In this document: piece after piece, positions 4,375-59,813 of the stretch
How positions within the stretch are numbered: position 1 is the first letter of the stretch
Layout: each line of letters starts with the position of its first letter
Program-made: the position numbers and the translations under genes
Assembly (NCBI GenBank): GCA_030265395.1
Contig: JARFYF010000072.1
Span: 3,782,179 to 3,846,178, forward strand
DNA from: Rhina ancylostomus
Lineage: Eukaryota
Reading direction: 5' to 3'
Length of the DNA: 64,000 bases
The notes under the pieces: generated by a model
What the model was told of the DNA's origin: nothing
What the model saw: only the letters and a program-made list of their open reading frames with translations
Databases searched by the model: none

Positions 4375-5249
4375 TTAATTTAACGGCGATTGTAATCCTG
4401 TCCCGCGGAAACTGTGGTCTCTCCAAATGCATCACTCGCTATCTTGTGACCATGGCGGCAGCAGATCTGATGGGCGTTATCGTCGTTGTTATCTTGGAGC
4501 AGATTAATTATATCTATTTGTTTGCTAATTCCTTGTTGAGAACTCCAGTGTCTACTATAATACTTGTCCAACGGCTTGCAACCACGGACTGTTCCGTTTG
4601 GTTGACGGTTGTTTTCACATTCGATCGCTACGTCGCCATCTGCTGTCAGAAGCTGCGGGCACGATATTGCACCGACAGAACGGCGATTGTGGTGACCGGG
4701 TCAGTCTGTGTATGGAGCTGTGTTCGGTCTATTCCGCTTTACTTTGCAATGGATCCACGGCACTGCGCTGCCAAAGCTGAATACTTCACATCACCCGTGT
4801 GGAGAGCCTACAGGTTATGTAACGGTATCGTGACTTTGGTATTACCAGTCTGCTTAATTCTTCTATTTAATACTTTAACTGTTGGACACATTATCGCGGC
4901 AAATCGTGTACGCCGGGAACTCCGGAACAGCAGCGGGAACAAGAAGGATCCAGAGGTGGAAAACCGGAGAAAGTCAATGATTTTATTGTTCGTTCTATCG
5001 GCCAATTTCATTTTACTCTGGATGCCCTGTTTTGTACACATTCTGAACTGGCAAGTGGAAAACTATTCCTACACAGACAGGTACCTCAGCACGCCGAGAT
5101 ATATCCTTCAACAGTTTGGGAATATGTTACAGTTTCTCAGTACCTGCACCAACACTTGTCTCTATGGATTGACACAGAGGAAATTTAGGGAGGAGCTGAA
5201 GAATGGTGTGAAATATCTGCTTCCGTTCAATGGCCAACTGGAGAAGTAA
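4375..5249 (+). CDS. GPR139/142-like GPCR copy 2, intact exon 2 (exon 1 not assembled)
   Basis: Acceptor ttctag at 4374; 875 nt open to TAA 5247-5249; TM2 MAAADL, TM3 FTFDRY, TM6 FILLWMP, TM7 TNTCLY, helix 8 KFREEL. Confidence 0.85.
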
Positions 5250-6850
5250 AATGCAAACCTGAATCGTTGAACTTCAAAACAATTGTTCGTACGTCTGTTC
5301 TATTTGAGGGTCAGGGGACTGCTGCTTCCAGATCGTAGTGTTTAATGTTGAGGTTTAATACGGGAAACTGATTCAGCAGATTAGGCAAAAACAATTTTAC
5401 TATTATATTCATAGCCGGATTATTGGTCCTTATATCTTGAGATTAAAGTCAACGGTGATTGATGAAAAATTAGCACAGAATATGAACAGGAACCTGTCGT
5501 ATTTCGCTGAAATAAACATTTTTTTTAACAAATGACTTCTTAATACGGAAGCAACAACAAAACTCGCTTACCAAACAGAAATCTGCGTTTAATCTGAAAA
5601 TAAATGTCACTTTTTAGTGCCTGTTTTCGCAGAATTTGTATTACAAATATATTTCCAACGTATGAAGTGGACAGCGCTGCAATAGTTGTCGAGATCATGG
5701 TTGTTCTCTTGCTCAGAGCAACATGTCCGTGCTAGGTAGATAGGTTCTCGTGGTGAGGAATAATGAAGTATCAATCGGTGCAGTACAACGGTCTGTCAGG
5801 GATGTGACATCATCAGTTTAGGCTCGCCCATTGCACTTCAGAGCAGCTGACGCCTTTGATGTCCTCGGAATGCCGGACACTCGTCTGCATTTTGCTTTGC
5901 TAATGCGGTATTGTGACCATGCTTTGCGCTGATCGTCAGTAAAAGTTAGAATTGTGTTAACGTCTCTTTGAACTTATCACGCCCCTCTTTTTTGTCGCTT
6001 GTAGTAACGTAATCTTCTGAGGCCAAGTCAATTTCTTCGGCGGAGTCAACTGTCATTAAAACGGACTGGTTGCAAACGGGATGAATTTAAACAGAAAGCC
6101 AGCTTATGATCTTCCTGCACTCCCCGTGCTTCTGGGGAATACAGGCACGCTACTTAAAATGGGATTCTCTTCTGTTGTAGAAGAGAGCTATATGTTTTGA
6201 TCGGTTTTGAATGGACGAATCATATATTCCATTTAGTCCATTGATTACAGCTGGTTCCAAAGGGGTGAAATAAGACAGGATGTTCTTCTCATGCAAAAGG
6301 ACAAAAGGAAGTGGCTTGATCTGGGAATAAAAGAGAGATTTTGCAACTGATGGAGAGCAATTTGGAGTAGAAACGTATATAGTTCTGACCATAACAGAGA
6401 AGCGACTGCAATAATTGTTGCGTTTCGTAAAAAACACAAAGGAGGGGAGAGCATCGACGTTTCACAGGTGAGAAGTCTTCCTTCCTTGCATTAGTTGAGC
6501 AGGTTTCAGCTTCAAACTGTTGACAGACAGAGAGGCGTGGGGGTTTATTGAAGGCTCTTCCACCTGCCGTTGCCAGGATGCGACAGCTGTGTTTACTGTG
6601 AGAGTTGCTAATTCTGTATTAAAACAGTTTTCATCAACGGTCGGATTGCCAACGGAACACAATTGTAGTGAACCAGCCTTTGGCAATCGGAGGTTGAACT
6701 TCCATATTCCAAATAAATACAAATAAATATATGTGCAGATAGTATTGTGTTTCTTGTAGATTAATCTTCTTGAATAAACGACATTCTTGGAATTAAATAC
6801 AGTAGGGTTTGCATCCTCAGAAGAGCGCAACATTGTTGCTGGATCATCAG

Positions 6851-6924
6851 TGTCCCTGAGTGGAATCGAACCACCAACCTTTCTGTCAGCAACCGACTGA
6901 GCAGACGGAATACCCCACGGAGAC
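6851..6924 (-). pseudogene. tRNA-Asn-derived pseudogene with perfect B box
   Basis: Reverse complement GTCTCCGTGG...AGAAAGGTTGGTGGTTCGATTCCACTCAGGGACA is 74 nt and collinear with vertebrate tRNA-Asn(GTT); D arm and anticodon (GCT) degenerate. Confidence 0.8.
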
Positions 6925-7708: not shown

Positions 7709-8583
7709 TTAATTTAACGGCGATTGTGATCCTGTCCCGCGGAAACTGTGGTCTCTCCAAATGCATCACTCGCTACCTTGTGACCATGGCGGAAGCAGAT
7801 CTGATGGGCGTTATCGTCGTTGTTATCTTGGAGCATATTAATTATATCCATTTGTTTGCTAATTTCTTGTTGAGAACTCCAGTGTGTACTATGATACTTG
7901 TCCTACGGCTTGCAACCACGGACTGTTCCGTTTGGTTGACGGTTGTTTTCACATTCGATCGCTAGGTCGCCGTCTGCTGTCAGAAGCTGCGGGCATGATA
8001 TTGCACAGACAGAACGGCGATTGTGGTGACCGGGTCAGTCTGTGTCTGGAGCTGTGTTCGGTCTATTCCACTTTACTTTGCAATGAATCCACGGCACTGC
8101 GCTGCCAAAGCTGAATACTTAACATCACCCGTGTGGAGTGCCTACAGGTTATGTAACGGTATCGTGACTTTGGTATTACCAGTCTGCTTAATTCTGTTAT
8201 TTAATACTTTAACTGTTGGACACATTATCGCGGCAAATCGTGTACGCCGAGAACTCCGGAACAGCAGCGAGAACAAGAAGGATCCAGAGGTGGAAAACCG
8301 GAGAAAGTCAATGATTTTATTGTTTGTTCTATCGGCCAATTTCATTTTACTCTGGATGCCCTGTTTTGTACATATTCTGAACTGGCAAGTGGAAGACTAT
8401 TCCTACACAGACAGGTACCTCAGCACGCCGAGATATAACCTACAGCAGTTTGGGAATATGTTACAGTTTCTCAGTACCTGCACCAACACTTGTCTCTATG
8501 GATTGACACAGAGGAAATTTAGGGAGGAGCTGAAGAATGGTGTGAAATATCTGCTTCCGTTCAATGGCCAACTGGAGAAGTAA
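7709..8583 (+). pseudogene. GPR139/142-like GPCR copy 3 exon 2, pseudogene
   Basis: Same 875-nt exon as copy 2, but DRY becomes DR* (TAG 7963-7965) and CGA becomes TGA at 7996. Confidence 0.88.
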
Positions 8584-10184: not shown

Positions 10185-10258
10185 TGTCCCTGAGTGGAAT
10201 CGAACCACCCACCTTTCTGTCAGCAACCGAATGAGCAGACGGAATACCCCACGGACAC
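10185..10258 (-). pseudogene. tRNA-Asn-derived pseudogene
   Basis: Paralog of 6851-6924; B box GGTTCGATTCC at 10196-10206. Confidence 0.8.
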
Positions 10259-11477: not shown

Positions 11478-12069
11478 AATGAATTCTATTAAATACCAGC
11501 AAATTATGGAAGCAAATATCACACAATTTTTTTTAAAAAAGCTGAAGATGAAAAGAGGGTGGCTTATACAACAGGCTAACAATCCTAAACACCTCAAAAT
11601 CCACAATGGACTACCTCAGAGGCACAAGCTGAAGGTTTTGCCATAGCGCTCACAGTCCCCTGACCTAAACATCATCGAAAATCTGTGGAGAGACCGCAAA
11701 AGAGCAGTGCATGCAACACTGCTCAAGAATCTCTCAGAACTAAAAGCTTTTCCCAAGGAAGAATGGGCGAAAATCCCTCAAACAAGAATTGAAAGACTCT
11801 TAGCTGGCTACAGAACTGTTTACAAGCTGTGATACTTGCCAAGGGGGTGTTACTAAGTACTGACCATGCAGGGTGCCCAAACGTTATTTAGTTCATTTTT
11901 TTGTTATTTTGCAACTGTAAAAGATGGAAATAAAAAACGTAATATTGCTTAATATTAAACAAATGAGTGATCTTTATACATTTTGAAAATCAAGTCATAT
12001 TTTACTCGCTTAGCTAATCGCAGTAACAGAATTTTTGACCAGGGGTGCACAAACTTTTGCAAACCACTC
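11478..12069 (+). mobile_element. Tc1-family DNA transposon, 3' half (decayed transposase and terminal repeat)
   Basis: QQANNPKH (QDNDPKH-like) and SPDLNIIENLW motifs; terminal ggggtgcacaaacttttgcaaaccact followed by TA. Confidence 0.88.
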
Positions 12070-12642
12070 TATTAAGTCTATTTATTATAGCTGGTGCCAA
12101 ATTGGTGAAATTTGTCAGAAAGTGCATGCCATGCAAAGGGAAGTTTATTGATCTGTGTATAAAACGGAGATTTTGCAACTAATGGAGAATAATTTGGAGT
12201 AGAATTGTAGATGGTTCTGAGGACCATCACAGAGAAGCGACGTGTTGCGCGTGTTTCATTCGTTAAGCAGGTTTTCACTTCAAACTCTTGTCATGGCCGA
12301 GAAGCATAGGGGTTTTTTGAAGGCCCTTGCATCTGCCATTGCCAGGAGCAACTAAAAGGATGCGACGTCTGGGTTTACTGTAACTGTGTAAACTGTTGCT
12401 AATTCTGTATTAAAACAATTTTCATCAACAGGCTGATTGCATCAGAACAAAATTGGAGTGAACAATCCTTTGGAAATAGGAGGCTGATCTTTCATTGTTC
12501 AAAATAAATGCGAATAAAGAAATGTACGGATAGTATTGTTTGTCCTGCAGATTTTGCTTCGTGACCACACCATATTTTTGGAATGAAATACAGCAGAGCA
12601 TTCCAGCCTCAGAAGAGCGCAACATTGCTGCTGGATTATCAG

Positions 12643-12716
12643 TGTCTCTGAGCAGACTCGAACCATCAACCTTTCTGCTTGTAGCCGAATGAGCTGACCG
12701 AATACGCTACGGAGGC
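12643..12716 (-). pseudogene. tRNA-Asn-derived pseudogene in an orphan GPCR 3'-flank module
   Basis: Reverse complement GCCTCCGTAGCGTATTCGGTCAGC...AGAAAGGTTGATGGTTCGAGTCTGCTCAGAGACA, 74 nt; flanks homologous to the 6851 and 10185 copies. Confidence 0.75.
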
Positions 12717-13774
12717 TCCCTGAATGAAGAGGCAAATATGGGCCATTGTTGGGCAGGGTGGCGCTGAGCAGGGATCGGTGCTGTTTCAGATTCACATAAT
12801 TATTCTGACTGCTGGGGGCGGGAAAATATGTATAATATACACAGCTATGTTGATCATACTAATCTGGATGCCATTGTGTGGTGTGGAGTATATTTTGGGT
12901 GCGCTTCAGATGTAGTTATATCCTTTCAATGCAAAGTGATTTAAGGGTGTTGGTATTCTGAGGAAACCCGGCGTCCATGCGCAGAAAATACCGGCAATGT
13001 ACACGAAGGGTCAGTGAGTTGGTCGGAAGGCAAACGGTATGTCGGCATTTATTGCAAGCTAGTTTGCATTCAGGAATAAACACGTCTTACTGGAGTTACA
13101 CAGGGCTCTAGAGAGGTGGCACGCGGAATATAAGAACATACGAATCAGGGATATCAGTTGGCTATTTGGCCCCTTAGAGCTTTCTGTAACATTCAGTAAT
13201 ATCATGGCTGAATTTATCCTCAACTCGACATCCCCGCCTCACCGGTGACCTTTTACACCTTGCTGATTAACCATTTCATCATCACTGCCTTAAACTATTC
13301 AGACACTCTGCTTCCGCCGCCCTTTGAGGAAGAGAATTCGAAAGACACACGCCCGACGTGTACCGCCCGACTCCCTATATTCTCCAGCAGATACAAACAG
13401 CGTGTCCCGTGGCAGACGGGAACAATAACGAAACCCAGTAAGAAGAAAATAATTGATATTGAACTGAAAACAGAAACTTCTGGAAACACTCAGCTGGTCA
13501 GGCAGCTCTGCGGAGGAGAAACAGAGTTCATGTTTCAGGTCGATGACCTGCCACACTGATCGCCGGGCAGGTAGTTGGACAGAGGGATTATAAATCAGAG
13601 AGTGACAAGGTTTCCTCACCCAGCCGCTATAATCACAGATCTCATTCAGTGCTACCCAGAACTATAGGCAATCACGCCGATGACTGCAAATGGCGTTACA
13701 CATTCCAGACCGGTGTATACACTATCAGGGAGAATGTTGCAACATTTATCATTCGTACAGTAGTGGATCAAATG

Positions 13775-17390: not shown

Positions 17391-17392
17391 AT

Positions 17393-18490: not shown

Positions 18491-20704
18491 CAGGGATATA
18501 CATTTATCTGGAGGATAGAAAGCATTTATTTTCATGCCATTTCAGCGGTTGGAATTCCCGGTAAGCCTCTGTCTCAGCTGTCGTAATCAGAGTTGGTGTT
18601 TAATTCCAATGCTCTGAAATATTTACCTCGCTACGTCTTTGCACAGTCACCTGTACAGTCCGAGCATTTCAAAAATGGAATTTCCGTGTTCTATGGTCTT
18701 GGTCTTTGAACGGCTCTCCTGTATTTGCAACGAATCTGTTCGGGTATTAACATACTAGATCGTTGTTTGTAAATAATCAGGGAGAGCGTGTCCAGGACAG
18801 GAACAGGAACCGGAGCACTGGTCGCTGTTAACATATAAACAGCTCAAAAATGTTCATTCGTAGGCTGGAATTTTTGTCACATTTATGCATTCCGTCATTG
18901 TACATTGAAAATGAGATAGTTGATGGAGGAGTCAGTGAAACCCTTCAGGTATATTCAAGTAGCGTGAGTGAACAATGATTGCAGCCTATTTTCAATCCAT
19001 ACTCAATTTCTCAAATACGTTTAATGGCTATCATTGTTGTAAAACATGTCTCTGCAATTCTTGCATCAGGCACCGCTCCAAATCTCAACTGAGATGCTGG
19101 CTCTTGAAATACTCTGCTCGGCCTTGATCCTACAGGTTTAGTGTGGATCGGAATGTCTGAGAGTATCTCAGCCTGCACTGCATATATTGGGATCAGCCGT
19201 TCACTGTCAGTCTGTCACAGACAGGCAGCGGCGGGAAGTTGGNNNNNNNNNNNNNNNNNNNNNNNNNNNNNNNNNNNNNNNNNNNNNNNNNNNNNNNNNN
19301 NNNNNNNNNNNNNNNNNNNNNNNNNNNNNNNNNNNNNNNNNNTCTCAGCCTGCACTGCATATATTGGGATCAGCCGTTCACTGTCAGTCTGTCACAGACA
19401 GGCAGCGGCGGGAAGTTGGTGTTCCGTCAATGGAACAATGTCTCCACTGAGCAACCGGATATAGTCATTTTACTCACCGCGATATGTGAACGGCACAGGG
19501 AAGGATGATCCATCCCGCATTACCCACTCCGAGTGCGTTACCCATCTAGAGCTCCGCTCCATTGAACCTTCCAGTCTTTAGTGTGGAACCTTACCCAAAC
19601 TTTATCCACATCATTTAGCTCCGTCAATCCCTCTTCTGTCCGGATAGACTCTGCGTTCTCTTGCGGCCCTTTGCATGGTCCAGGAAACACTTCAATCCCC
19701 TCGATACAGCAAGAAAGCGGCAATGTCATCTGAACACCTCAAACCACTGGCTCCGCGCCTGAATTGTATTTTCCCTCCTTGCTTTTCTCTCCGTTCCAGT
19801 TAACCTAATGGCGAATGCGATCTTGTCACGAGGAAAGTGTGGTCTCTCCAAATATATAATTCTTTACCTGGTGGCAATTGCAGCGGCCGATCTCCTGGTC
19901 GTTATCTCGTAACCCCTGCTCAGGTGGACTGTTCTGATGTATTTTCCGCTATCATTCGTCCGCATCACTCCCGTGTGCAGTCTCGGTCTTTGGCTAGTTT
20001 TAGCAAGCAATGCGGTTTCTGTCCACCTTCCGGTCGCTTTCGTCTTTCAGCAATCTGTGGTCATTTGTCGTGAGTAGGTGAAAACAAAATACTGTACCGT
20101 GAGAACAGCGGCTGTGGTCGTCGGGACAGTAAGTGTTCTGAGCTTTTCAGAGAGTTTCCCCCGGTACTTTGTATACGAGCCTAGAGAAATAATTGATGTT
20201 GTTCCCTGGGACTGTTCCAGTAAACCCAGCTGCCGTGCATCCCTGCATGGGTGGCACATCAGCTGTTTCACCACAATTTAACCCCTTTTTCCCCGTTCTT
20301 TCTGATTCTGCTGCTCGATGTTCTGACGGTCAGACGGACTTTAGCGGCCAGTAGAGTCCGCAGTGGGTTCCAGGGCCACAGCAATAGGGAGAATAACAGT
20401 CACCCGGAGATGAAGAAACGAAGCAAATCAATCCATTTACTCTTCAATATAACCGGTGGTTTCATATTGCTCTGGGTAAAAATGGTGGTGTTTTCTGTCG
20501 ATCAACGAATTTCAAAGAGCTATAATTTTCAGCCACCCATCCCCGTTATATCACACTACACACAGCAAGATTGAGCAGCTTCTCTGTTCCAGTACCAACA
20601 CGTGTATTTACGCCGCGACTCAGAGAAAATTCTGAGCACAGCTGAAGAACGCGATGAAATACCCGCTGAATCGGATTATTCATTCCGTTCAATGTAAACA
20701 CTAA
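18491..20704 (+). pseudogene. GPCR copy 5 (subfamily B): exon 1 18491-18560, exon 2 19800-~20704, pseudogene
   Basis: Start codon replaced by CAG; GYTFIWRIESIYFHAISAVGIP+G|GTAAGC; acceptor ttccag|TTAACCTAATG; LSRGKCGLSK, AAADLL, KYCTVRTAA, YEPREIIDVVPWDC, TNTCIY; several stops and frameshifts, DRY lost. Confidence 0.85.
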
Positions 20705-37872: not shown

Positions 37873-37946
37873 GTCTCTCTGGCGCAATCGGTCAGCGCGT
37901 TCGGCTGTTGACTGAAAGGTTGGTGGTTCAAACCCACCCAGGGACG
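37873..37946 (+). tRNA. tRNA-Asn(GTT), near-intact, probably pseudogenised
   Basis: GTCTCTCTGGCGCAATCGGTCAGCGCGTTCGGCTGTTGACTGAAAGGTTGGTGGTTCAAACCCACCCAGGGACG; C:C mismatch in acceptor stem, G at 37; T4 run downstream. Confidence 0.8.
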
Positions 37947-38651: not shown

Positions 38652-38723
38652 AGCAGAGTGGCGCAGCGGGAGCGTGCTGGGCCCACAACCCAGAAGTCGA
38701 TGGATCAAAGCCATCCTCTGATA
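38652..38723 (+). pseudogene. tRNA-iMet body with anticodon CAC
   Basis: AGCAGAGTGGCGCAGCGGGAGCGTGCTGGGCCCACAACCCAGAAGTCGATGGATCAAAGCCATCCTCTGATA; six differences from the vertebrate initiator tRNA as I recall it. Confidence 0.85.
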
Positions 38724-40096: not shown

Positions 40097-40168
40097 AATG
40101 GATTGTCCTTGGAACTGATCGCATGCTTCGCATGTATGAGGTGCTGGGTTCAAATCCCGACATCTCCA
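40097..40168 (+). pseudogene. tRNA-Ala(CGC) pseudogene (internally deleted paralog at ~38115-38147)
   Basis: CGCATGCTTCGCATGTATGAGGTGCTGGGTTCAAATCCCGACATCTCCA matches the 3' two-thirds of tRNA-Ala(CGC); 5' end degenerate. Confidence 0.8.
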
Positions 40169-40666: not shown

Positions 40667-40728
40667 AGCAGCGGGAGCATGCTGGGCCCATAACCCAGAG
40701 GTCGATGGATCGAAGCCATCCTCTGCTA
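40667..40728 (+). pseudogene. tRNA-iMet(CAT) pseudogene with 13-nt 5' deletion
   Basis: GCTGGGCCCATAACCCAGAGGTCGATGGATCGAAGCCATCCTCTGCTA retained; AGAGTGGCGCAGC lost between GCAGC direct repeats. Confidence 0.85.
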
Positions 40729-41497: not shown

Positions 41498-41570
41498 GTC
41501 CCTGTGGTGCAGTCGGTCATCGGATTCGGCTGATGAGCGAAAGGCTGGTGTTTCAGCCGACTCAGGGACA
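41498..41570 (+). pseudogene. Degenerate tRNA-Asn pseudogene 3' of GPCR copy 7
   Basis: GTCCCTGTGGTGCAGTCGGTCATCGGATTCGGCTGATGAGCGAAAGGCTGG...CTCAGGGACA with conserved flanks (tgtgaaaagccgggtcccag; ctgacgatccggca). Confidence 0.7.
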
Positions 41571-43810: not shown

Positions 43811-44670
43811 CAGATTTTCCCATTTCAGGTAAACATATCTATCACTGCATTCACCAGTTCCTCCCTAAATGTCCTTTGTGTCAGTCCACAGAGACACGTG
43901 CAGGTACTGAGAAACTGTAACATATACCCAAACTGTCGAGGATATATCTCGGTGTGCTCTATTATCTGACCAAGTAGGAATGGTTCTCAGATTGCCAGTT
44001 CATGGTGTGTATAAAATAGGGTATCCACAGTAAAATGAAATTGGCTGATCGAACGAACAACAAAATCATTGACTTTCTCCGGCTGTCCACCTCTGGATCC
44101 TTCTGATTCTCGCTGCTGTTCTGGAGTCCCCGTCGAACTCGATTTGCAGCTATAATATGTCTGACAGTTAAAGTATTAAACAGCAGGATGAAACAGATTG
44201 GTACTCCCGGAGTCACGAAAACATCACATAACTGCTCAACTCTCCAAACGGGTGACGTTATGTGTTCAGCTGAGGAGCCGCAGCGCCAGGGATCCACTGT
44301 AAAGTAAACTGGAATAGCCCGAGTACAACACCCCGCACACACTGCAACTATCACTACATCGCTATCATCTCGGTGCAATACCGTTTCCGCAACTTCTGAC
44401 AGCAGATGGCGACGTAGCGGTCGAAAGTGAAATCAACCGTCAACCAAACGGAACTGTCCGAGATTGCAACCCGAAGGACAATCATCACTTCACACACAGG
44501 AGTTATGAACAAGAATTTAGCAAACAGATGGGTATAATTAATCTGCCCCAATATAACTGCGACAACAATGTCCATCAGATCTGCTTCCGCCATGGCCAGT
44601 AGGTTGTGAGTGATGCATTTGGAGAGACCACATTTTCTGCGGGACAGGATCACAATCGCCGTTAAATTAA
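43811..44670 (-). pseudogene. GPCR copy 7 exon 2, pseudogene (exon 1 beyond gap or absent)
   Basis: Acceptor cgcag at 44671; ILSRRKCGLSK...FTFDRYVAIC; frameshift near 44370, stops in ECL3 and C-terminus; close paralog of copy 8. Confidence 0.88.
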
Positions 44671-46609: not shown

Positions 46610-49135
46610 TCACCGAATCAGGATTGTATGTTTCCAACCGATTTTCCCATTTAAGGTAAAAATATATTTCACTGCATTGATCAGTTCCTCCCGAAATTTC
46701 CTTTGTGTGAGTCCATAGAGACACGTGTTGGTGCAGGTACAGAGAAACTCTAACATATACCCAAACTGTTGCAGGATATATCTCGGTGTGCTGTAATATC
46801 TGTCTGAGTAGGAATAGTTCTCGGATGGCCAGTTCATAGTGTGTATAAAATAGGGTATCCACAGTAAAATGAAATTGGCTGACAGAACGAACAACAAAAT
46901 CATTGACTTTCTCCGGCTGTCCACCTCTGGATCCTTCTGATTCTCGCTGCTGTTCCGGAGTCCCTGGCGAACTCGATTTGCAGCTATAATATGTCTGACA
47001 GTTAAGGTATTAAACAGCAGGATTAAACACATTGGTACTCCCGGACTCACGATAACATCACATAACTGGTAGGCTCTCCAAAAGGGTGACGTAAAGTATT
47101 CAGCCGTGGAGACGCAGCGCCATGGATCCACCGCAAAGTAAAATGGAATAGCCCGGGCACAGCAACCTGTACACACAGTTCCTATCACCACAGTCGCTGT
47201 TCTCTCGGTGCAATATCGTTTCCGCAACTTCTGACAGCAGATGGCGATGTAGCGATCGAAAGTGAAAACAACCGTGAACCAAACGGAACAGTCCGAAATT
47301 GCAACCCGAAGGACAATCATCACCGCGCACACCGGAGTTATGAACAAGAATTTAGCAAACAGATAGATATAATTAATCTGCTCCAGTATAACAGCAATGA
47401 CAACGCAAATCAGATCTGCTGCCGCCATGGCCACCAGGTAGCGAGTGATGCATTTGGAAAGACCACATTTTCCGCGGGACAGGATCACAATCGCCGTTAA
47501 GTTGACTGCATGAAATGATAAAACATGATGTTATGTTTCAACTGATCCATATTTGTCAATATGGGTTGATTTGAGCGGGAAAAAGAACGATATTCCGCAT
47601 CGGGCCACAGCCCAGAGCCGTCACAACTGAACCAGCGCGCCTGCCGTGACCGCGATGGGGAGCGGATGGCCGATCAGGCTCACACTGACCAAACGACGTA
47701 CAACTGAGATCTCGCCGGTTTGACGCTCTGAAGTAAATCAACAGGATGGAAAGCTGGAGGCTGAGCTGTGTTTTAATGTATCTTTGATTCTGTCATGTAG
47801 TTGAAAGATGGCCCGATACACTTGCACCTGGACCCAAAAGGGAGAGAATCGAGCGCAGTACCGATTGTTTAAATGGATTTTAAAGAAATTAAAAACCATG
47901 CCCAACCATCAAGGTTTACAAAATGATTAATCTCTTGGTTTGATGGAAAGTGTTGAAAATAATAAAAGAAGAATCGAATAAAATAACTTATACTCCCCCA
48001 TCCCGACAGCGGAAAGAGCTGAATGTCACTCTGAAAGGTGGTGAAGAAACGGTTGCAGAACGGCGAGGAGGACAACATTGCTCTTGAATGGAAAGCACAG
48101 ATAACTAACAGACAAAACTGTTCTTCAAATTTAAAAAAGTAAATCAATAAAGACACAAGTAAACAGGTCATATTTGTTCATGGGACAACAAATGGCATTT
48201 GCCAAGGTAACCGACATGAAAAATTATTTTAAGGAACTTCGCAATGACGGTGACATTGGAAGGTAATTGACAGGAATTCGAAAGGCTGGTGAAATGCCAC
48301 TACCAATGATAGTTTACCCCGACGGACAAAGTAACTCAGGTGCATTGTCTCAGACAACAGGGTTTGGTCAATGTTTTTTGACCTTACAGTTGACCGACAC
48401 CGACTTGCGGAAAGACGGTAACATCATTGTTCCCTCTGTTTGGGATGACAGAAGAGGAAGAACTCCATTGACACTGAGAGACAGGAAAAGCTGGAGACAG
48501 TTTTGGGCTGAGTGGCGCGCTGCATGGAATCGTGTCCGTGCTTTTTATTCACTCCTTCTGTCAACCTTCACCCTATGGTGAGCACAATTGTGCTGAGACT
48601 GCCCGAGGCCAGAGCGGACGCAGCAGTGACCATACGTCGACTGACAAACCATAGACGTCTCAGTGCCAGAGAGTCCGCACTACGTTTGTAAGGAGGTAAC
48701 ATGGGTGCGAAATCTTGTGGACTGTGAGCTTGGTAATCACACTTAACATCTCTGGTAGTCGGCGGTGTTCAAAAGAAAATTAAATTTCTATCACCTGATT
48801 AGGTTGATCATATATAAATATATTTAAATATATTGAAAACTTTTCTCAAATTGACATGCGGAATTACACCATTAAAGCAACACAAAATACATTTTTGAAG
48901 GAAATAATCAGATCGTATTCTTTTCAATTCCTACTTCTGAAATAATGCAATTTGAAATAATGTAATAATACAATGTACTCAACAACTGGAAATTGACGGC
49001 TCATCCATGATGCCGCAAGCGGAATGATGGAGCCACAAAAATAGCAGACGGATTCGATACCTTACCAGGAAAACCGATCGCGGCAAGTACAGGATAGTAG
49101 ATTCTGACAATGTTGTAAAGAGCTGGATATCCCAT
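46610..49135 (-). CDS. GPR139/142-like GPCR copy 8, complete and intact, 321 aa (exon 1 49135-49066, exon 2 47505-46610)
   Basis: MGYPALYNIVRIYYPVLAAIGFP+G|GTAAGG ... tgcag|TCAACTTA; 966 nt in frame; 7 TM segments with AMAAADL, FTFDRY, LLWIP, TNTCLY; TATAAA 74 nt upstream. Confidence 0.92.
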
Positions 49136-50519: not shown

Positions 50520-51720
50520 TTAAATCGGACACCTTCCTATTCACACCTTGCTTCCATTTCGACAAATTTATCTAGATTTCGCAGGTCTGTTCTTCCAAAT
50601 TTGAAATTTTGCTTTTTTTGAAACCCAATGTCCACCCAGTGTGCTCCTGTGCTGTGGTGACCAGGACTGTAGACAGTGCTCCAACTTGTTTTCATGCAAT
50701 TCCAGCAGAGCTCACTGTTCGGCATTCTGTGCCTTCACCAACAAGGGCAAATCTTCCATCCACCTTTGAAACCTACGAACCGATCTGTTCTACCTTCAGT
50801 GACCTGTACACATGCAGTCCCTCTGCACTTCTTCACATTATCCCATGTATTGTGTGTCCCCTTGGCCTTCTTTGGGCTCCGCAACTTCATCACCTCACAT
50901 CCTCACACTAAATTCTATTTGCCAACTGTCTGCTCACCTGTCCAGACCACTGACATCTTCCTTCCGTCTTCGGCTTCCCTCCTTACCGTCAGCCACACGG
51001 CCAATATTTGCAACATTTGCAAACTCCGTAATCAAGCCATCATGCTGGCATCAGAATTGTCCCTTCAAGTCAAAAGCAAGGGCACTGTCACTAGTATCAA
51101 GGAGTCCCACTACGAACAGCTTTCAGACACTGTTCAACAATGTCCTCATTCCCCGTCACGGAGCCAGTGCTGAATCCAACTTACGACTTTACCATGACCA
51201 CTATCATTTTTCAGTTTCTAATCAAACTGCACCGTGGTATGTGCCACACACATTGGGAACATCCACGGAACGTTAACAGAGGCACAGACTCACAATCCTC
51301 TTTGTGGCATTCTCAAAAGTAATATCATGGCATGTGCAGCTGAAATTGTGCAAAATCCTCTGAAGTGAATGCCATTGTGTAAAGGGTGTGGTAAACACGT
51401 TACTGTTGTGATATCACGTGGAAGGAAGTACTTTACACGGAGCAGAAAGTTGTTTGATCATGAGTATGAGATGAGATTTCCCCATTGATGTGGAGAACTT
51501 CTTTGCACGAATGGTCCGATAGAAAATCACATCAAAGTAGATGTGCCGATATTTGCTGAAGTCAGCACTTCTCAACAGCACACGAAGAGTGACGCCCTGT
51601 TTCATTCCTCCAGAGAAATGAAACAGTTTCTTGTTTCTTGGAAGGATTGAGCAGATTTTACCTTGAAATTGCAGTCGTGGTTGAGTGACGTCAAGGGCCA
51701 TTAAAGACGGTTGAATTTGC
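50520..51720 (-). mobile_element. Decayed LINE fragments (CR1, then an RT fragment with GMKQG)
   Basis: gtgaccaggactgtagacagtgctcc CR1 signature; GGMKQG motif in ORF 51414-51701. Confidence 0.5.
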
Positions 51721-52113
51721 TGTGGCCAAGAGCAGCATTAGGGATTTGAAAACCAGTTGATTGAACACGTTGCCTGGACCAGACAATATGTAGGTTATCC
51801 AGTCCACTAGGACAGAGAACCGATGTTGCCGCTCACCTACCCGACAATGTGTCGGTGATCCAGTGCACAGAGAAAGAGAGCTGATGCTGTCGCTCCCTAG
51901 CTCAACAGTATGTCGGTAACCCGGTGCAGTGGGACATAAAACTGCTCCTGTTGCTCCCCGACCCATCAACGGCGAGCTTTTAGTGTTCCCATATGCTCCA
52001 GATCCATAAAGTAGCAATGGTGCTTTTGCATTATACAGTCTGACTTCATTCAAAGCTCTTGTCGGACTCTGGGTGTATTTAGCCTCTCTGTTCAATATTC
52101 ACTATCACCAGCG

Positions 52114-52186
52114 TGGAGAAGCCGGGGATTGACACCCGGGGCCTCACAGATTCAATCTGTCAGCTCTGTCACTGCGCTACATGCCC
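52114..52186 (-). pseudogene. tRNA-Ala-derived pseudogene with remodelled anticodon arm
   Basis: Reverse complement GGGCATGTAGCGCAGTGACAGAGC...GAGGCCCCGGGTGTCAATCCCCGGCTTCTCCA; 3' flank cgctggtgatagtgaa shared with the Ala copies at 38147 and 40168. Confidence 0.7.
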
Positions 52187-55100
52187 TACATGTTAACAGC
52201 CATGTACGTAATTTATCTAGTGTGTGTCTCCCGCTGATCATAAAACACAGAAATCGAAACAAAGGAAAAAAAGGGAGCTGAAGTAGGATATTCGTCCCTT
52301 CCATCCCGGTTCGCCGTTTAATACTATAATGGCTAATAATCTGTTCACTCCTGTATCCCGGTACCCACCCCCCTTTCGATAATAAGACAATTACAGAAAT
52401 ACTCATCGATAGATAGAGAATTAGAACTAACATTTTTGGTTAGCGACCTGGAGTGAGATTGTTTCAGTCTCACACTAAATAACGAAAGACCGTTAAATAA
52501 TTGAAAAGGCAACGTAGACCCAGGAAATCCGGAAGCCCAGCATCAACTTTGCATTAATTTCAAGGCCGGCACGGAATTTAACAGGCCTATTTAGCTCTAG
52601 GGAAAGTGAAACCGTGTTTAGTAATGACGGGGAGATCTCCCACTGAGCTTAGTGAGACAGCGGCCTTCTTCCAGCGATCATTGAGGGGCTGAGGCCTCAT
52701 CTAACAACCTCACAATACTTCATGGGTGTATTGATGAAGGAAGGAACATGAGTGGCCTTGGTATTTTGTGAGAATTTGCATCTTTTTGATCCATTGTAAA
52801 ATATCCTGACATTCTCAGTGCTGTACCGGGCAAGTTATCGAAATTTCGATGGGGAGTGGTATCGAGGAGAGATTGGAAGAATGCGGAACAAAGTTAAGTA
52901 ACGTTTCGTGATGCAGATAAACCAGTTCATCGAGACGAGAGACAATGGGTAAAACTGGAAACTGCAGCCGAGCATTTAGGGAAACTGAACCACTGTGATT
53001 ATCGCTGATTAATCCATGGCTTTCCAAATGCGGATTTATCTTTTCCATCTTTTTTTTATTTCTATAGCTTTCGTAACCCTGCCTTTACACCGTTGGCGCT
53101 GTCATAACACGCCTTATCTCCGCTGCCCTTCTTGGTTAAGGGTATCACACTCTATTCAACCGGTTCCTTAAGTGTGCCTCGATAAGAGTTTAAGAAAATG
53201 TCTTTAGTTTTACCCGAAATTATTCTCCCTTGACTCCTCTATATCAGCGATGTGGTTGAGCGGACCATACGGGTAAGCTCCTGGCACATGTATGAGTGTT
53301 AAGCCGAGCTGTTAGGAGCCGGATGTTATCTTCAAAGAGATCGAGCTTGGCTGACAATTAGACGTAAAATGGAAGGTTGAACAGGATGTGGAAAAATCTG
53401 CGTTCATTCGCTTTGTTTGACGTTTATGGGAGCCGATTGCGAAGATTGTCCAGTGATGTGGGTCCGCAACGGAACATAACGCTAAGATATGACTGGTGAT
53501 GTGTTTGGGTGACGGCCCAGATACAAGCATTCCAATGTCCTGTTCTGATTTATATTTTGTGCCTTCTCAACAGGTTGTTTGCTTTGAAGACATGGATAAG
53601 GAGATTAGAATTATGCAGCGAAAATATGAAGCATTAAATGTCATCTCAAAGGTCCCGGGAGAGGAAGACGTCAGTTGTGGAAAGACAAGTCTGTGAAAAT
53701 GTGGATTCATTTGCTGAACCGGAACCAGAGATAGACTGAGAAGCTCTCCAAGCAGAGGCATCACTGAGGCACAGACTGTGTAATATCAGTTTCTGGAGTT
53801 AAAACTTTGCCAGCGGAAAATATTTTAAATGCAATTCAGTTGCCAAGAACGGCAGGGGTGAATTTTGATCAAATACGGGAAGAGGCCATGGTTGGAAATA
53901 GAAATCCATGCACAACGTTGGGAGTAAAGAGTAAATGTTTATTTGCTGTGATTAAAGTATATACAAGGGAAGGGATCATTTAAACAGAGATTCAGAGACC
54001 GTCGTCAACACTGCAGAGACACAGTCTCCAGAGTGCTGATGTATTCGGTCCAATTTCCCCATTTCATGATTTCCCTGTATTAGCTGTCTTGCCCAAGCCT
54101 TCAATGTTTGACTCATGAAAGGGTGAGGTCAATTCTGAGATCTCCAGAATGAATGGAATTAATTTCAGGATCAGTGGGAATTCAGCAATGAGTGTGCGAA
54201 ACGGTGCCAGTCGAGCCCATAGAAATTCTCAAGGAAGCCGATAAAAGCAGGCATGTCAAGCATTTAACACCATATAAATACAAACTGCATCTGGCTTTAG
54301 CAATGATTTGAAAATGAGAGGAAATATTTGGACATATGGGTTGAAATGTGGCAAGTCAGCCAGTCAGTGAAGAATGGTCGACAATGAGGGGAGTCATATT
54401 GCAAATGAAATAAGCAGTTTCATGGAGAACATAGATGAGGTGTGCAGTGCGAGCAAAATTCATTTTCAATTGATGCTTGTGTTTTATATGCCTGTGATGG
54501 ACAATATTTTGCTCGGTGACAGCATAAAGTCCTGAAAATGTTTGAACAACAAACATAAGTGGAAAATAAAATTCTTCGGTGGTCTGAGGTCGTGAGTGGG
54601 GAGAAGCTCATTGACATGAGGACGCGAGAGAAGATTGCCGTTTTTCCTAGAAAGTTGTTCTTGGACAGGAAATGGTATGCCAAACTTATCGATAGAATCT
54701 GAAACTATGAAATATTTAGAACACTAATGGCGGTGTATATGTATATATATATTCATTTCGGTAAGTACGACTTCAACCCTCATGTGTTCGGAGTGAGTTG
54801 GCCAGATTGACTCATTCTTCACTATAAAATACTGTTCTCAGTCTGTGTGCGCTTTGCACCCAGGTGCCTGCCACCTCGATGTCTGTACGAGGACCTTAGG
54901 CTGTTTTTGGATCTGTTTGGAATTGTTGACGTCACGAGACATGCAGGGATGCAGTTAGCCTCTGTTAATTTATATCTCAACCACCCATGATTTTCACTTC
55001 CAGCACTAAACCCACCTGAAAGACAGGACGATGGATAAACTCTCCCCCTGACGAAGGCTTATCCCTCATTTCACCTGCAATATTAAACACACTTCATCCT

Positions 55101-55506: not shown

Positions 55507-58350
55507 ATGGGATACCCAGCAATATTTCACATCGTCAGAATTTACTATACTATCCTTGCAGCTGTCGGCAATCCTGGTAAGACACTGGAATTGAATGGTG
55601 ATTATTTGTGGCTCTGTCTAATGTATTACGCTGGCGGCGTTGTCGATTACCCGTATCTTCCTGTCCAGATGCTCAGTCTACTGTATTATTTTAGAAAGTG
55701 GAAATTGAAAAGAAAACGATATTGTTATTTAGTTTTAAAATGTAATTTATGTTACTTTAATTGTTTATTTCTGCATGGAAATTTCGGTGAAGATTTCTAT
55801 TCATTTACGTATATTTATATATGACCAATCTGAGCACATAATGCAAATTGATCATTTAATATTAACACCGACGAATACCATAAACATTTAAGAATGATTA
55901 CAAAGCTCACAGTCGATCAGATTCCGCACCAACGTTACCTCCTTTCACAAGCAATCATGACCCTCCGGCGGTGAGAAGTGTGTGGTTTGTCAATTGAGAC
56001 CTGGTCACTGCTGAGACCGCTGTGGCCTCGGGCAGTCCCAGCACAATTGCTCTCACAATACCGTGAAGGTTGACTGAAGGAGCGGGAAGAAAGCAGTGAG
56101 AGGATTCCCAACGCGCTGTTGAATCATCCAAAAGCGATCGTCAAGTTTCCTGCCTCTCACTCTAAATGGATTTCTTCCTCTGTTGGCATCCCAAACTGAG
56201 GGAACTATAATTGCTCATCAATGTCGTCATTGTGAAATACCTCCATTCTGAATATTTCTTGTGTGCGAACTGTGCAAGAGCCATTTGGTGTTCCATCAGC
56301 AAATCTGACTTGATTTTGTGGCCTCACTGTTAGTTGGAAAGCATAACCAAGGAAATCAAAAATGATTTTATTTTCTTTAAAAACTATTACTAATGGCTAA
56401 CAATTATTTGTATGTGTTTCTCCAAAGAAGAATTGTTTTGTCCTCTAAACAGTGCCTGCAGTACTTTCCCCAGCACTAACACTGTCCTTTTCAGCGCGAC
56501 GCTCAGCTTCCTCCCCCAGGGGTATACTTCATTTCAAATTTCTTTAATCACCTCATTCATTTGGCGCCTCGTTTCTCATTTTTCACTTTTACCATTTAAT
56601 TAAAGGATTACTGAGTATATCGACCTTTATGGTTTGGGTATTGCTTATAATTGTCAACATATTTTCTGTGACCGTGTTCATAACCATAATTGTCTCACGA
56701 ATCACGCCTGTCCCGACAACTTCTGGTTTTCACGCCCTGCGCGATGCGCATTCACCCGATTGATCTCTTCTGCCCTGCGGCTTCCAGCGTCCAGGACACT
56801 ACAATGATATCACCGTTTCTAAAGGCGGAGCGGTCAGAGAGTGACGGCTCATATTGAAGGGGATAATGTGGCTCCCTGTCCCCGAATATGCCAGCGAGGC
56901 GTATGACATCTTCTGACATCATGGGGCTTTCCATGTCATCTCCAAATATCTCTCCGAATCAAAGGCAATTGCTTCAAGATATTTCACAGGTGCAATTATT
57001 GAACTCATTCATTTCGAAACGGACCTAACTGAGGTCAGTTAATTGAAAGCAGTACAAAAGCGTGGAGTGATGTGAAATTCAAACAGATCAGTCCACTGCA
57101 TGTGCCGTTCCCCGGAAGTCGCCAACCACATTAAAACAATAGAGACTGCGCTGGATTCCCTCCACTTTGTATCCGGCCATTCGTTCACTGCCTGGCAGAA
57201 CCAGCAGAAGACGCTCTGTTCTGATTTAACTTGAAGCTCAGCCTTCGACTTTCTTTCAGGGTGCGAATCGAACGAGAACTCAGCTGCAAGTCGCTCGTCG
57301 AGGGTCAGTCTAATCGATTGGACGTATACCATTTCGTCAGCAGAGGCGGCCTGATCACCTTGCTGCGGCTTCATTCAGTGGCTGCATCCGAATATTAATT
57401 TTACAGTACCAATCAACTCACACTGACCAATGTGGGTCGTTGGGAAGTAACAGCATATTTTATGATTCCTTTGAGTTAATTTAATAGCGTTTGTGATCCT
57501 GTCCCATGGAAAATGTGGTCTCTCCAAATGTATCACTCGCTACCTGGTAGCCATGACAACAGCAGATCTGATAGGCATTGTTCTTGCTGTTTTATTGGAG
57601 CAGATTAATTTCATCTATCTGTTTGCCAATTTCTTTTTCAGAATTACGATGTGCACTGTGATACATGTCCTACGGGTTGCAAAGTCGGACTGTTCCGTCT
57701 GGTTGACTGTTGCTTTCACTTTCGATCGTTACGTCGCCATCTGCTGTGAGAAGCTGCGAAAACGATATTGCACGGAGAGAAGAGCGATTCTGGTAACAGT
57801 GACAGTGAGTGGAGGGAGCTGTGCCTTGGCTATTCAAATTTACTTTGCGGTCGATCCACGGCGCTGCTCCGCCAAAGCTGATTATATTGCGTTACGCCTG
57901 TGGAGAACCTTCAGGTTATGTGACAATATCGTAACTCTGGCATTACCAATCTGTTTAATTCTAATGTTTAATACTTTAACTATGAGGCACATTACAGCAG
58001 CAAGTCGAGTCCGCCTGGGACTCCGGAACATCAGCAACAACCAGAAGGATGCAGAGGTGGAGAACCGAAGAAAGTCAATGATTTTATTGTTCGTTCCATC
58101 AGCTAATTTCGTTATACTTTGGATCCCCCATTTTGTGTACACTATGAACTGGCAAGTGGAAAACTATAGTTACACAGACAGATATTTCAACACTCCGAGA
58201 TATGTCTTGCAACAGTTTGGGTATATGTTACAGTTTCTCAGTACCTGCACCAACACGTGTATCTATGGAATGACACAGAGGAAATTTAGGAAGGAGCTGA
58301 AGAATGGAATGAAACATCTGTTTCCATTAAATGGACAACTGTGTAAATAA
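55507..58350 (+). CDS. GPR139/142-like GPCR copy 9, complete ORF, 314 aa (exon 1 55507-55576, exon 2 57476-58350)
   Basis: MGYPAIFHIVRIYYTILAAVGNP+G|GTAAGA ... ttgag|TTAATTTA; 945 nt with no stop; FTFDRY, TNTCIY; weak GAG acceptor. Confidence 0.82.
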
Positions 58351-59741
58351 AATGTCAACCCAAATCGTTGACCTTTGAAGCAATTATTCTGGTTCGTTTT
58401 ATTTGAGTGTTTAGAGACTTACTTTTCCAGATCCAAATGTATATTTGCTTTCATGCAACAAATTGTTTCAGAGGATCGGGCAACAACTATTAGATTATTA
58501 TTTCAATTGCAAGATGATTGACTCACATGGCATGAGATTTACTTCCACCAGGGGTGAGGAAAGAACAAGTGATAGGTGAGAATATGAAAAGGAATCTAAC
58601 GGATTATCCAACATTGAACAAACTATGTACAAAAGCCTGTTTAGTACAGAAACAAAAACACAACTACTTTTGCAAAAGAAAATAAATCCCCGTGTCATCC
58701 GAAAACTGTACTTTCTGGTGTCTGTTTTCACCTCATTTTGCTTTCTTTGTTATTATTTCAGATTTCCAGCATCTGAGGTCTACGTTGATATAACAGTTTG
58801 TCGAATTAATGTTTTTTTTTCATCACGGCGACATGTCCGTGCCAGATTTATCATGAAAAGCGAAGTATCAAGGGTTCCGGTATATTTGCCTGTCAGGGAT
58901 GTGCGCTGAGCCTCGCCGATTGCACTTCGGTTATGCTGACACCTTTGATGTCCTCAGACACGGTATAATCGCCTACATGTCTGTTGGTCTTTAGGACGGC
59001 GTTCCGCTGATATTCAATAAAAACTGGAATTGTATTGAACTTCTGCTGAATTTTCACATGCGACTCTTTTGTCTTTTGTCCCAGCGGAGACTTTTTAAGG
59101 CGACATTAAGTCTACGGTGGAGTCAACTCTCAGTAAATTGCGCATGTTACCGCCATGAATTGAAGCCCTAAGTCTAAGCATGACACCTTTGCTCTCCCCA
59201 CACTTCTGGTGAAGATCGACCATCTGCTTGGAATGGAACTGCAGTGTATTGTGGGAGATTGTAGTCGATTTAGAATAGTGGAATTAAATGTTCTAACGTG
59301 CTGAACAACATCATCAACCCTTGTTGCTGTCTTTATGTCTTGCAACAGGAAGTTGTTTTCTCGTTTGTAAAAAAAAGGAGATTTTGCAATTTATGGAGAG
59401 AAAATTGGGCTGGAAATATTAATGGAGCAAAAGAACATAATGAAGAAGCTGTGGTTGATTGTTTCGTCTCCAGGGCTTCCTCTGAACTGTCGTGATGTGA
59501 CAGATGTATTTTGTGATCTTGAGAAGTGTTGTTTCCTGGATTGAATGAGCAAGTTTTAACTTCAAGCTGTGGTCATGGCCGATATGTGAGAAATTTTATC
59601 GAAAAGCCTGTAATGTGCCGTTGTCAGGAGCAACGGACAAGATGTGAGAACTGCGATCATTAGAACAATGTTACAAATTGTGCAAGAAAGCGACATTCAT
59701 GAACATACGGAATGAAACAGAGCAATGAATGTTCACCAGCC

Positions 59742-59813
59742 TGGTGATGCCGCGAACTGAACCCACGACCTCATGTATCTAAATGATGAGGTCTTCAATT
59801 GTGCGATATGCCC
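59742..59813 (-). pseudogene. Degenerate tRNA-Ala pseudogene 3' of copy 9
   Basis: Reverse complement GGGCATATCGCACAATTG...CATGAGGTCGTGGGTTCAGTTCGCGGCATCACCA followed by flank ggctggtga; 72 nt. Confidence 0.6.

What the first reader, a model, noticed from the sequence alone, without database searches (positions are those of the whole stretch)
4375..59813. Receptor genes co-duplicate with a convergent tRNA-derived element that tends to keep its B box
Seen: a tRNA-like sequence lies on the opposite strand 1.4-2.2 kb past the stop of copy 2 (Asn 6851), copy 3 (Asn 10185), copy 7 (Asn 41498) and copy 9 (Ala 59742), and in the orphan 3' module (Asn 12643). Flanks on both sides match those of the near-intact tRNA at 37873, so these are segmental copies and not SINE insertions. 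At 6862-6872 and 10196-10206 the B box is a perfect GGTTCGATTCC with its CpG intact, while the D arm and anticodon have decayed. The 41498 copy has lost its B box. Established: TFIIIC-bound B boxes (tDNAs, ETC sites) can act as chromatin boundaries. Inference: the repeat unit is receptor plus tDNA, and the remnants may insulate individual receptor genes or have seeded unequal crossover.
Basis: partly seen in the sequence, partly recalled or inferred. Interest (0 to 1): 0.7.

Follow-up and report, generated by a model that had tools for sequence, protein, structure and literature searches.

The report
Dead tRNA genes copied with receptors
In a ray's array of orphan receptor genes, a neighbouring pair of tRNA genes was copied along with the receptors and is now decaying evenly, with no clear sign that the remnants act as insulators, so this looks like ordinary gene-cluster turnover.

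Summary
Co-duplication is real; B-box retention is not shown. The window is a batoid array of two-exon, GPR139-like orphan GPCR genes. The copied unit is the receptor plus a convergent tRNA-Asn/tRNA-Ala pair 1.4-2.2 kb past the stop, colinear for about 2.3 kb from exon 2. It is present at 4 of 6 assessable receptors. Against a functional tRNA-Asn the 11-nt B box took 11 changes, 11.1 expected (P 0.51). The 'perfect' box at 6862/10196 differs from the ancestral one at 2 positions, and these copies are 96% identical, so they count once. The 7 invariant positions show a weak deficit (4 against 7.7, P 0.11). The Ala core survives in 1 of 5. The one complete receptor with a visible flank (copy 9) has both boxes broken. 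Remnants diverged as fast as flanks and synonymous sites, while the receptors show dN/dS 0.35-0.48. Best reading: neutral hitchhiking of tRNA pseudogenes in a birth-and-death array. An insulator role is not excluded (low power) but is unlikely.

The parts
1484..4146 (+). Receptor copy 1: exon 1 at 1484-1553, exon 2 from 3582, cut by a gap; 2 internal stops (pseudogene); 3' flank not visible
4375..5249 (+). Receptor copy 2, exon 2: open frame; exon 1 not seen (gap upstream)
6851..6924 (-). tRNA-Asn remnant of copy 2: 18 of 74 differences from functional Asn, anticodon GCT, 4 A-box changes, no T4 terminator within 60 nt; B box GGTTCGATTCC (2 changes, core intact)
7709..8583 (+). Receptor copy 3, exon 2: 2 internal stops (pseudogene); unit 96% identical to copy 2
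10185..10258 (-). tRNA-Asn remnant of copy 3: 19 of 74 differences; same B box as 6851
12065..13345 (+). Orphan 3' module (module positions 980-2462, no receptor attached), holding Asn remnant 12643-12716(-): 20 of 74 differences, B core intact, C62 changed
18491..20662 (+). Divergent receptor pseudogene (copy 4); no tRNA module found behind it
23141..27117 (+). Receptor pseudogene (copy 5); shared 3' flank ends about 145 bp past the stop; no tRNA
37873..37946 (+). Near-intact tRNA-Asn(GTT): 6 of 74 differences, 1 of 21 stem pairs broken, A box intact, B core fits, T4 at +17; Rfam 54.8 bits
38129..38147 (+). 3' stub of a tRNA-Ala; most of the gene, including the B-box core, is deleted (coordinates approximate)
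38216..38355 (+). About 130 bp shared with the receptor 3' flank (module positions 745-874), inside the receptor-less Asn-Ala-Met unit; twin at 40246-40373
   Evidence: E 1.4e-6 and 4.1e-5
38652..38723 (+). tRNA-Met-derived copy with anticodon CAC (ARAGORN calls it Val); its paralogue 40667 has CAT; initiator type by T-loop (recalled)
40117..40168 (+). tRNA-Ala remnant, 5' part deleted; the only Ala copy with an intact B core
40667..40728 (+). tRNA-Met(CAT) remnant, D arm deleted
41498..41570 (+). tRNA-Asn remnant of copy 7: 16 of 74 differences; B core broken (substitution and 1-nt deletion)
41930..41990 (+). tRNA-Ala remnant of copy 7 with the T arm and B box deleted (coordinates approximate)
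43789..44670 (-). Receptor copy 7, exon 2: frameshifted pseudogene
46610..49135 (-). Receptor copy 8: complete two-exon gene (exon 1 49066-49135, exon 2 46610-47505); 3' flank homology stops at 45587, then a probable LINE piece and a gap, so tRNA status is unknown
51413..52292 (+). Second orphan 3' module, holding Ala remnant 52113-52186(-) with an insertion in the B core; no Asn found
55507..58350 (+). Receptor copy 9: complete two-exon frame (exon 1 55507-55576, exon 2 57476-58350; acceptor is GAG)
59742..59813 (-). tRNA-Ala remnant of copy 9; B core broken at A58
63687..64000 (+). Receptor copy 10, start of exon 2; runs off the window

Best explanation
A tRNA-Asn/tRNA-Ala pair came to lie convergently 1.4-2 kb behind one member of a large chondrichthyan GPR139-like GPCR family. 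The same pair, followed by a Met tRNA, forms the receptor-less units at 37.8-41 kb. Tandem and inverted duplications of 5-7 kb units then copied the receptor, its 3' flank, the tRNA pair and up to about 1 kb of tRNA 5' flank together (shown by colinearity). Selection acted on the receptor frames; the passenger tRNAs were redundant and have decayed evenly by substitution and deletion, B box included (shown within the power of 6 lineages). Many receptors have since died too, and partial duplications or deletions left orphan modules. The duplication mechanism, unequal crossover between kilobase-long unit homologies, is inferred. So is the order of events (tRNA cluster first, receptor junction about 0.75 kb past the stop second); its only support is that the receptor-less Asn copies are the least decayed.
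For: Colinear exon-2-to-flank blocks of about 2.3 kb at 68-71% identity, then in-order blocks over the tRNAs or their 5' flank. B box 11 changes against 11.1 expected, P 0.51 in all 7 copies and 9 against 8.7, P 0.57 in the 5 receptor-module copies. Rates per site are flat across arms: D 1.11, anticodon 1.17, T 1.00. Body identity matches 5' flank identity: 0.78 and 0.79 (6851/12643), 0.73 and 0.71 (6851/41498), 0.96 and 0.96 (6851/10185), 0.84 and 0.84 (37873/39843, 80-nt flank). Body distances of 0.34-0.64 between copies 2, 7 and 9 are about as large as or larger than receptor dS of 0.37-0.43 among copies 2, 8 and 9, while receptor dN/dS is 0.35-0.48. Anticodon GTT is lost in 5 of 5 receptor-module Asn copies and the T4 terminator at +17 is lost in the same 5 (41498 has a T4 at +32 in unrelated sequence). 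Ala B core is intact in 1 of 5 visible remnants, and no Ala is recognisable in the copy 2/3/12643 lineage. 2 of 6 assessable receptors (copies 4, 5) lack the module, and 4 tRNA-bearing modules lack a receptor. tRNA birth-and-death with tandem copies and pseudogenes is the described norm (PMC4981973, passages); elasmobranch genomes are rich in clustered tRNA loci (10.1101/2025.06.08.657570, section 6).
Against: The 7 invariant B-box positions show fewer changes than expected: 4 against 7.2-7.7 (P 0.11-0.12), P 0.047 if the tolerated G57A is not counted, and P 0.018 for at least 4 of 6 Asn lineages keeping the core under a uniform rate (chosen after seeing the data, Ala copies not included). The two changes in the 6851/10185 box make it an exact match to the human motif GTTCRAWTC (PMC3245943, passage). 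Power is modest: 50% to detect a halved rate. The flank comparisons involving 60014, and the 400-nt flanks of 37873/39843 against other copies, are near the aligner's random baseline of 0.57 and carry no information. No genome-wide or chromatin data were available.
Confidence: 0.8

Rival explanations
1. Some remnants (6851/10185, perhaps 12643) have become TFIIIC-only (ETC-like) boundary sites kept by selection to insulate neighbouring receptor genes.
For: Core deficit of 4 against 7.7 changes (P 0.11); 4 of 6 Asn lineages keep the core (P 0.018, post hoc); the 6851/10185 box matches GTTCRAWTC while A box, anticodon and terminator are lost. ETC sites and tDNAs act as TFIIIC-dependent barriers (PMC12409998, passages). 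A piece of tRNA 5' flank at 168-324 just before copy 1's 5' region shows that the module can sit between consecutive receptors.
Against: The full box decays at the background rate. The best box is one lineage and one of its two receptors is a pseudogene; complete copy 9 has both boxes broken. Ala cores are mostly lost (1 of 5 intact). The motif is common by chance: 26 GWTCRANNC sites in the window against 36 +/- 5 expected, and 4 of 7 GTTCRAWTC sites lie outside tRNA remnants.
Confidence: 0.08
2. The tRNA copies acted as the homology, or as fragile Pol III sites, that seeded the unequal crossovers which expanded the array.
For: Several deletion ends lie in or beside the tRNAs: the Ala gene is cut or removed in at least 4 units, and the Asn 3' flank diverges about 17 nt after the gene in three copies.
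Against: The tRNAs lie inside the shared unit, with 0.4-1 kb of homology beyond them and 2.3 kb on the receptor side, so kilobases of better substrate exist. Visible unit ends (27117, 45587, about 12065, module position 745) are not in tRNAs. Thirteen gaps hide many true breakpoints.
Confidence: 0.08
3. Part of the apparent repetition is an assembly effect: copies 2 and 3 are two haplotypes of one locus written in tandem. This would lower the copy count but not change the main reading.
For: Both begin at the same base after a 100-N gap. In run X1 a contig over 6463-6782 has 7 other letters, all those of copy 3, and no contig with copy-2 letters is listed at 6527 or 6698; letters of both copies occur at 6897.
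Against: 117 substitutions over 3.15 kb and dS 0.063 are high for alleles (judgement); the copies differ after 7398/10733; a shared intronic repeat would break both contigs at one place; contigs show presence, not absence.
Confidence: 0.25
4. The remnants are independent insertions of a tRNA-derived SINE.
For: They are tRNA-derived, degenerate and repeated.
Against: Shared 5' flanks in 6 of 6 copies (0 of 300 shuffles), fixed position and order within a colinear unit, full-length tRNA bodies with no common tail seen, and no further copies in the window outside the units.
Confidence: 0.01

Closest known systems
Birth-and-death turnover of multicopy tRNA genes (PMC4981973, passages read)
   Same: Tandem copies of tRNA genes escape concerted evolution, become pseudogenes and disappear; clusters are duplicated as blocks.
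   Different: Here the tRNA pair rides inside the duplication unit of a protein-coding receptor family.
Clustered tRNA loci and tandem gene arrays in elasmobranch genomes (10.1101/2025.06.08.657570, sections 6 and 9 read)
   Same: Abundant clustered tRNA loci lying with another proliferating gene family (there histones); tandem GPCR arrays (V2R, SUCNR1).
   Different: The main text read does not name GPR139-like arrays or a receptor-plus-tRNA unit; its supplements, which list the tandem clusters, could not be seen.
tDNA insulators and extra-TFIIIC (ETC) sites (PMC12409998 and PMC3245943, passages read)
   Same: A B box without a working tRNA gene; the 6851/10185 box matches the quoted human motif GTTCRAWTC.
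   Different: ETC sites are defined by TFIIIC occupancy, untested here; the boxes here are not conserved above background and do not track intact receptors.
GPR139/GPR142 orphan class A GPCRs
   Same: 7tm_1 domain; nearest solved structure by sequence is human GPR139; NCBI names most close relatives 'probable G-protein coupled receptor 139'.
   Different: The match to human GPR139 is weak (37.2 bits against 36.7 for a neurotensin receptor), whereas GPR139 is described as highly conserved in vertebrates (PMC12208981, abstract start). These are a separate expanded family; all named hits among the best 120 of 1320 are sharks or rays.
Xenopus laevis 3.18-kb tandem repeat of 8 tRNA genes (title seen in a reference list only)
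   Same: A multi-tRNA unit repeated in tandem; that it holds Asn, Ala and initiator Met genes is recalled, not checked.
   Different: Functional, homogeneous and without a protein-coding passenger; homology to this locus was not tested.

Membership tests
tRNA pseudogenes carried in segmental/tandem duplications | Derived from a functional tRNA gene | tested here: met
   6-21 differences of 74 from the commonest tRNA-Asn among the fetched loci (18 matches); Rfam RF00005 hits at 37873, 38652 and 6851
tRNA pseudogenes carried in segmental/tandem duplications | Flanks shared and colinear with other copies | tested here: met
tRNA pseudogenes carried in segmental/tandem duplications | Loss of tRNA function and neutral-rate decay | tested here: met
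   For receptor-module copies: anticodon changed in 5 of 5, 3-10 of 21 stem pairs broken, distance about equal to or above receptor dS. 37873 may still be transcribed.
ETC site / tDNA insulator | B-box consensus present | tested here: inconclusive
   Core present in 5 of 7 Asn copies (4 of 6 lineages) and 1 of 5 Ala copies; absent from both remnants of complete copy 9
ETC site / tDNA insulator | B box conserved above neighbouring bases | tested here: not met
   11 nt: 11 against 11.1 changes, P 0.51; 7-position core: 4 against 7.7, P 0.11; power 50% for a halved rate
ETC site / tDNA insulator | TFIIIC occupancy without Pol III/TFIIIB | not testable with these tools
   No chromatin data available
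ETC site / tDNA insulator | Barrier or enhancer-blocking activity | not testable with these tools
   Needs a reporter assay
tRNA-derived SINE | Unrelated flanks at each copy, common tail, dispersed copies | tested here: not met
   5' flanks shared in 6 of 6; no copies outside the units in the window
GPR139 (orthologue of the human gene) | High identity to human GPR139, single copy | tested here: not met
   E 1.7e-8, 37.2 bits, on a par with a neurotensin receptor; 9 copies in 64 kb. No tree with vertebrate GPR139/GPR142 was built.
Chondrichthyan GPR139-like expanded GPCR family (database label) | Close relatives in many shark and ray genomes | tested here: met
   1320 hits; best 78% identity to a Pristis pectinata protein

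The most novel reading that the evidence does not exclude
In the copy 2/3 lineage a hitchhiking tRNA-Asn gene has been turned into a TFIIIC-only boundary: A box, anticodon and terminator were lost while the B box kept its core and moved by two substitutions to the best human-type motif, and such tDNA-born boundaries separate individual genes of a large orphan receptor family in sharks and rays.
Probability: 0.07. Interest if true: 0.65.

Novelty: new member of a known kind. Interest (0 to 1): 0.2.

Why it matters
As found, it matters little: it is a clear local example of tRNA genes multiplying and dying as passengers of a receptor array. It may help explain inflated tRNA counts in shark and ray genomes, and the shared tRNA module is a marker for one sub-lineage of the array. 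If the insulator reading held, it would show how extra-TFIIIC boundaries arise from tRNA genes and give a testable route to gene-by-gene regulation in a large receptor family. The receptor family itself (over a thousand database relatives; no dedicated paper found in my searches) may deserve more attention than the tRNA remnants.

Tried and rejected
No whole genome is held, so no genome-wide association test. A scan of metagenome contigs with the receptor found no relative (59 pattern matches, 0 confirmed). The 119 loci fetched with a tRNA-Asn pattern gave the functional reference; in the part of the output shown, none matched the window much beyond tRNA bodies. Sequencing runs: 5 listed, no RNA holder listed. 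Laying 4 of the 5 runs on 4247-7481 showed only 40 of 794 variant rows, none inside the B box (6862-6872), so no cross-species B-box test; paralogous flanks at 66-72% identity fall under the 80% threshold, so low cover of the flank says nothing about linkage elsewhere. The X5 contig over 6850-7081 (depth 2.4, 11 other letters where copies 2 and 3 differ at 11 places) was not used as cross-species evidence. ARAGORN at a lowered threshold gave 29 calls, most of which look like noise. The receptor tree has 2 supported forks of 6, too few to test congruence with the tRNA tree. Folding energies were uninformative: 41498 folds at z -4.6 into a non-tRNA shape (1 of 8 sequences folded). Pfam gave no good hit for the sequence interrupting copy 8's flank, so its LINE identity is recalled from a motif. 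Pfam on 51 of 79 other open frames gave 1 weak reverse-transcriptase hit. Searches of earlier findings gave 0, 0, 0 and 1 rows. Paper searches for the receptor expansion or its tRNA linkage found no description; the library lacks most subscription papers, so this is not proof of absence.
Full report
Setting. The window has 13 gaps of 100 N, so it is a scaffold of short contigs, and no whole genome is held. It carries 9 copies of a two-exon class A GPCR gene. The best of 1320 protein hits is 78% identical to a Pristis pectinata 'probable G-protein coupled receptor 139', and all named hits among the best 120 are sharks or rays, so the animal is most likely a batoid. The match to human GPR139 is weak (37.2 bits, level with a neurotensin receptor), so the name is a label for a separate expanded family. 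Copies 8 and 9 have complete frames, copy 2 has an open exon 2, copies 1, 3, 4, 5 and 7 carry stops or frameshifts, and copy 10 runs off the window. In runs X1 and X2, 47 and 42 contigs join exon 2 to a different intron end, which points to a large family in these genomes; the tool warns that depth is no copy number.

The observation. A more sensitive search gives 7 Asn-derived copies (6851, 10185, 12643, 37873, 39843, 41498, 60014), 5 Ala-derived remnants (about 38129, 40117, about 41930, 52113, 59742) and 2 Met-derived copies (38652, 40667). The unit is therefore receptor, about 1.3 kb of flank, then Ala and Asn pointing back at the receptor, then up to 1 kb of tRNA 5' flank. Copies 7 and 9 show both tRNAs; in copies 2, 3 and the 12643 module no Ala is recognisable and the spacing is about 100 bp shorter. 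Exon 2 and flank are colinear for about 2.3 kb at 68-71% identity between copies 2, 7 and 9, followed by in-order blocks over the tRNAs or their 5' flank. The 90 nt 5' of Asn match 37873 in 6 of 6 copies with 0 of 300 shuffles reaching the score; the 3' match is strong for 3 of 6 and weak for 3 of 6. Co-duplication is thus shown and SINE insertion is excluded. It is not universal: 4 of 6 receptors with a visible 3' flank have the module (copies 2, 3, 7, 9; not 4, 5); copies 1, 8 and 10 cannot be judged; four tRNA-bearing modules have no receptor.

The B-box test. As the functional reference I used the commonest tRNA-Asn among 119 loci fetched from metagenome contigs (18 matches, e.g. L005); 37873 differs from it at 6 of 74 positions, and its B box is unchanged in 39843. 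The 'perfect' box of 6851 and 10185 differs from it at 2 of 11 positions, and the two copies are 96% identical over 3.15 kb. Counting changes by parsimony on the tree of the copies, the 11-nt box has 11 changes against 11.1 expected after stratifying by base class (P 0.51), and 9 against 8.7 in the five receptor-module copies (P 0.57). 34 of 64 sliding 11-nt windows are as well or better conserved. The box CpG survives in 5 of 7 copies and another CpG in 6 of 7, in a window with CpG observed/expected of 0.71, so an intact CpG says little. Against my reading: the 7 invariant positions have 4 changes against 7.2-7.7 expected (P 0.11-0.12), P 0.047 if the tolerated G57A is ignored, and P 0.018 for 4 of 6 lineages keeping the core under a uniform rate. 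These subsets were chosen after seeing the data and leave out the Ala copies, where the core is intact in 1 of 5; I did not run a rate test on Ala because the available reference is not from a ray. The two changes in 6851/10185 make an exact match to the human motif GTTCRAWTC (PMC3245943, passage), but 4 of 7 such sites in the window lie outside tRNA remnants. The test has 50% power for a halved rate and 93% for a quartered rate.

Neutral decay. tRNA bodies are as alike as their 5' flanks where the flank alignment is informative (0.78/0.79, 0.73/0.71, 0.96/0.96, 0.84/0.84); comparisons near the 0.57 random baseline were set aside. Body distances between copies 2, 7 and 9 are 0.34, 0.64 and 0.60, against receptor dS of 0.37-0.43 and dN/dS of 0.35-0.48 among copies 2, 8 and 9. 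All five receptor-module Asn copies have lost the GTT anticodon and the T4 run at +17, and break 3-10 of 21 stem pairs. Box status does not follow gene status: copy 9 is complete and has both boxes broken; copy 3 is dead and has the best box; copy 7 is dead and has none; copy 2 has an open exon and the best box.

History (inferred). The receptor-less units at 37781-38954 and 39752-40963 are 83% identical, read Asn-Ala-Met, hold the least decayed Asn copies (0.09 and 0.15 from the reference) and share about 130 bp with the receptor flank at module positions 745-874. The simplest reading is a tRNA cluster whose Asn-Ala part became joined to a receptor 3' end about 0.75 kb past the stop, after which the joined unit was amplified. 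The reverse order cannot be excluded without an outgroup. The tRNAs lie inside the unit, so they need not have seeded the crossovers. Copies 2 and 3 start at the same base after a gap and could be haplotypes; run X1 shows copy-3 letters alone over 6463-6782, but 117 substitutions and dS 0.063 favour a recent duplication.

Comparison with what is known. It works like ordinary tRNA birth-and-death (PMC4981973, passages) in a lineage rich in clustered tRNA loci and tandem arrays (10.1101/2025.06.08.657570, passages and sections 6 and 9; supplements not seen and may list this array). It does not meet the one ETC feature that could be tested, conservation of the box; occupancy and barrier activity (PMC12409998, passages) are untested. 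I found no paper on this receptor expansion or its tRNA link (word searches within PMC12208981, PMC6504862, PMC12294341 and PMC11979771), in a library that lacks most subscription papers.

Verdict. Observation partly confirmed, interpretation partly supported. A new instance of a known process; interest 0.2. The insulator reading keeps about 7% and would deserve 0.65.

Noticed in passing
window 38652-38723 (+): Full-length Met-derived tRNA copy with anticodon CAC instead of CAT (ARAGORN calls it Val; Rfam 46.4 bits); no T4 within 60 nt downstream. Probably a pseudogene that annotation would miscall.
   Followed up: partly
whole window: The GPR139-like family is very large in sharks and rays (1320 database relatives; dozens of distinct intron junctions per run) and I found no paper devoted to it. 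Ligand and tissue unknown.
   Followed up: partly
window 1-64000: CpG observed/expected is 0.71 over the whole window, high for vertebrate DNA by my recollection; may mean low germline methylation of this array.
   Followed up: no
window 41498-41570 (+): This Asn remnant folds unusually stably (z -4.6, 0 of 200 shuffles) into a non-cloverleaf shape; 1 of 8 sequences folded, chance not excluded.
   Followed up: no
window 45201-45587 (-): Sequence interrupting copy 8's 3' flank reads like the start of a LINE ORF1 with one stop (motif recalled; no good Pfam hit), followed by a gap.
   Followed up: partly
window 24912-25331 (-): Weak reverse-transcriptase fragment (RVT_1, E 2.7e-4, below the curated cut-off) in the intron of copy 5.
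   Followed up: no
window about 61000-61125 (-): Small inverted fragment resembling the intron/exon-2 junction of the receptors, about 2.7 kb behind copy 9.
   Followed up: no
window 14121-18939: A separate duplicated block (14121-15840 against 15941-18939, 74-78% identity) with exon-1-like sequences at 15402 and 18491 of the divergent copy-4 type.
   Followed up: no
window 168-324 and 653-845: Pieces of the tRNA 5' flank at the left edge suggest another module just outside the window, upstream of copy 1.
   Followed up: no
window 57473-57475: The exon-2 acceptor of copy 9 is GAG, where other copies have CAG or TAG; splicing may be weak although the frame is open.
   Followed up: no
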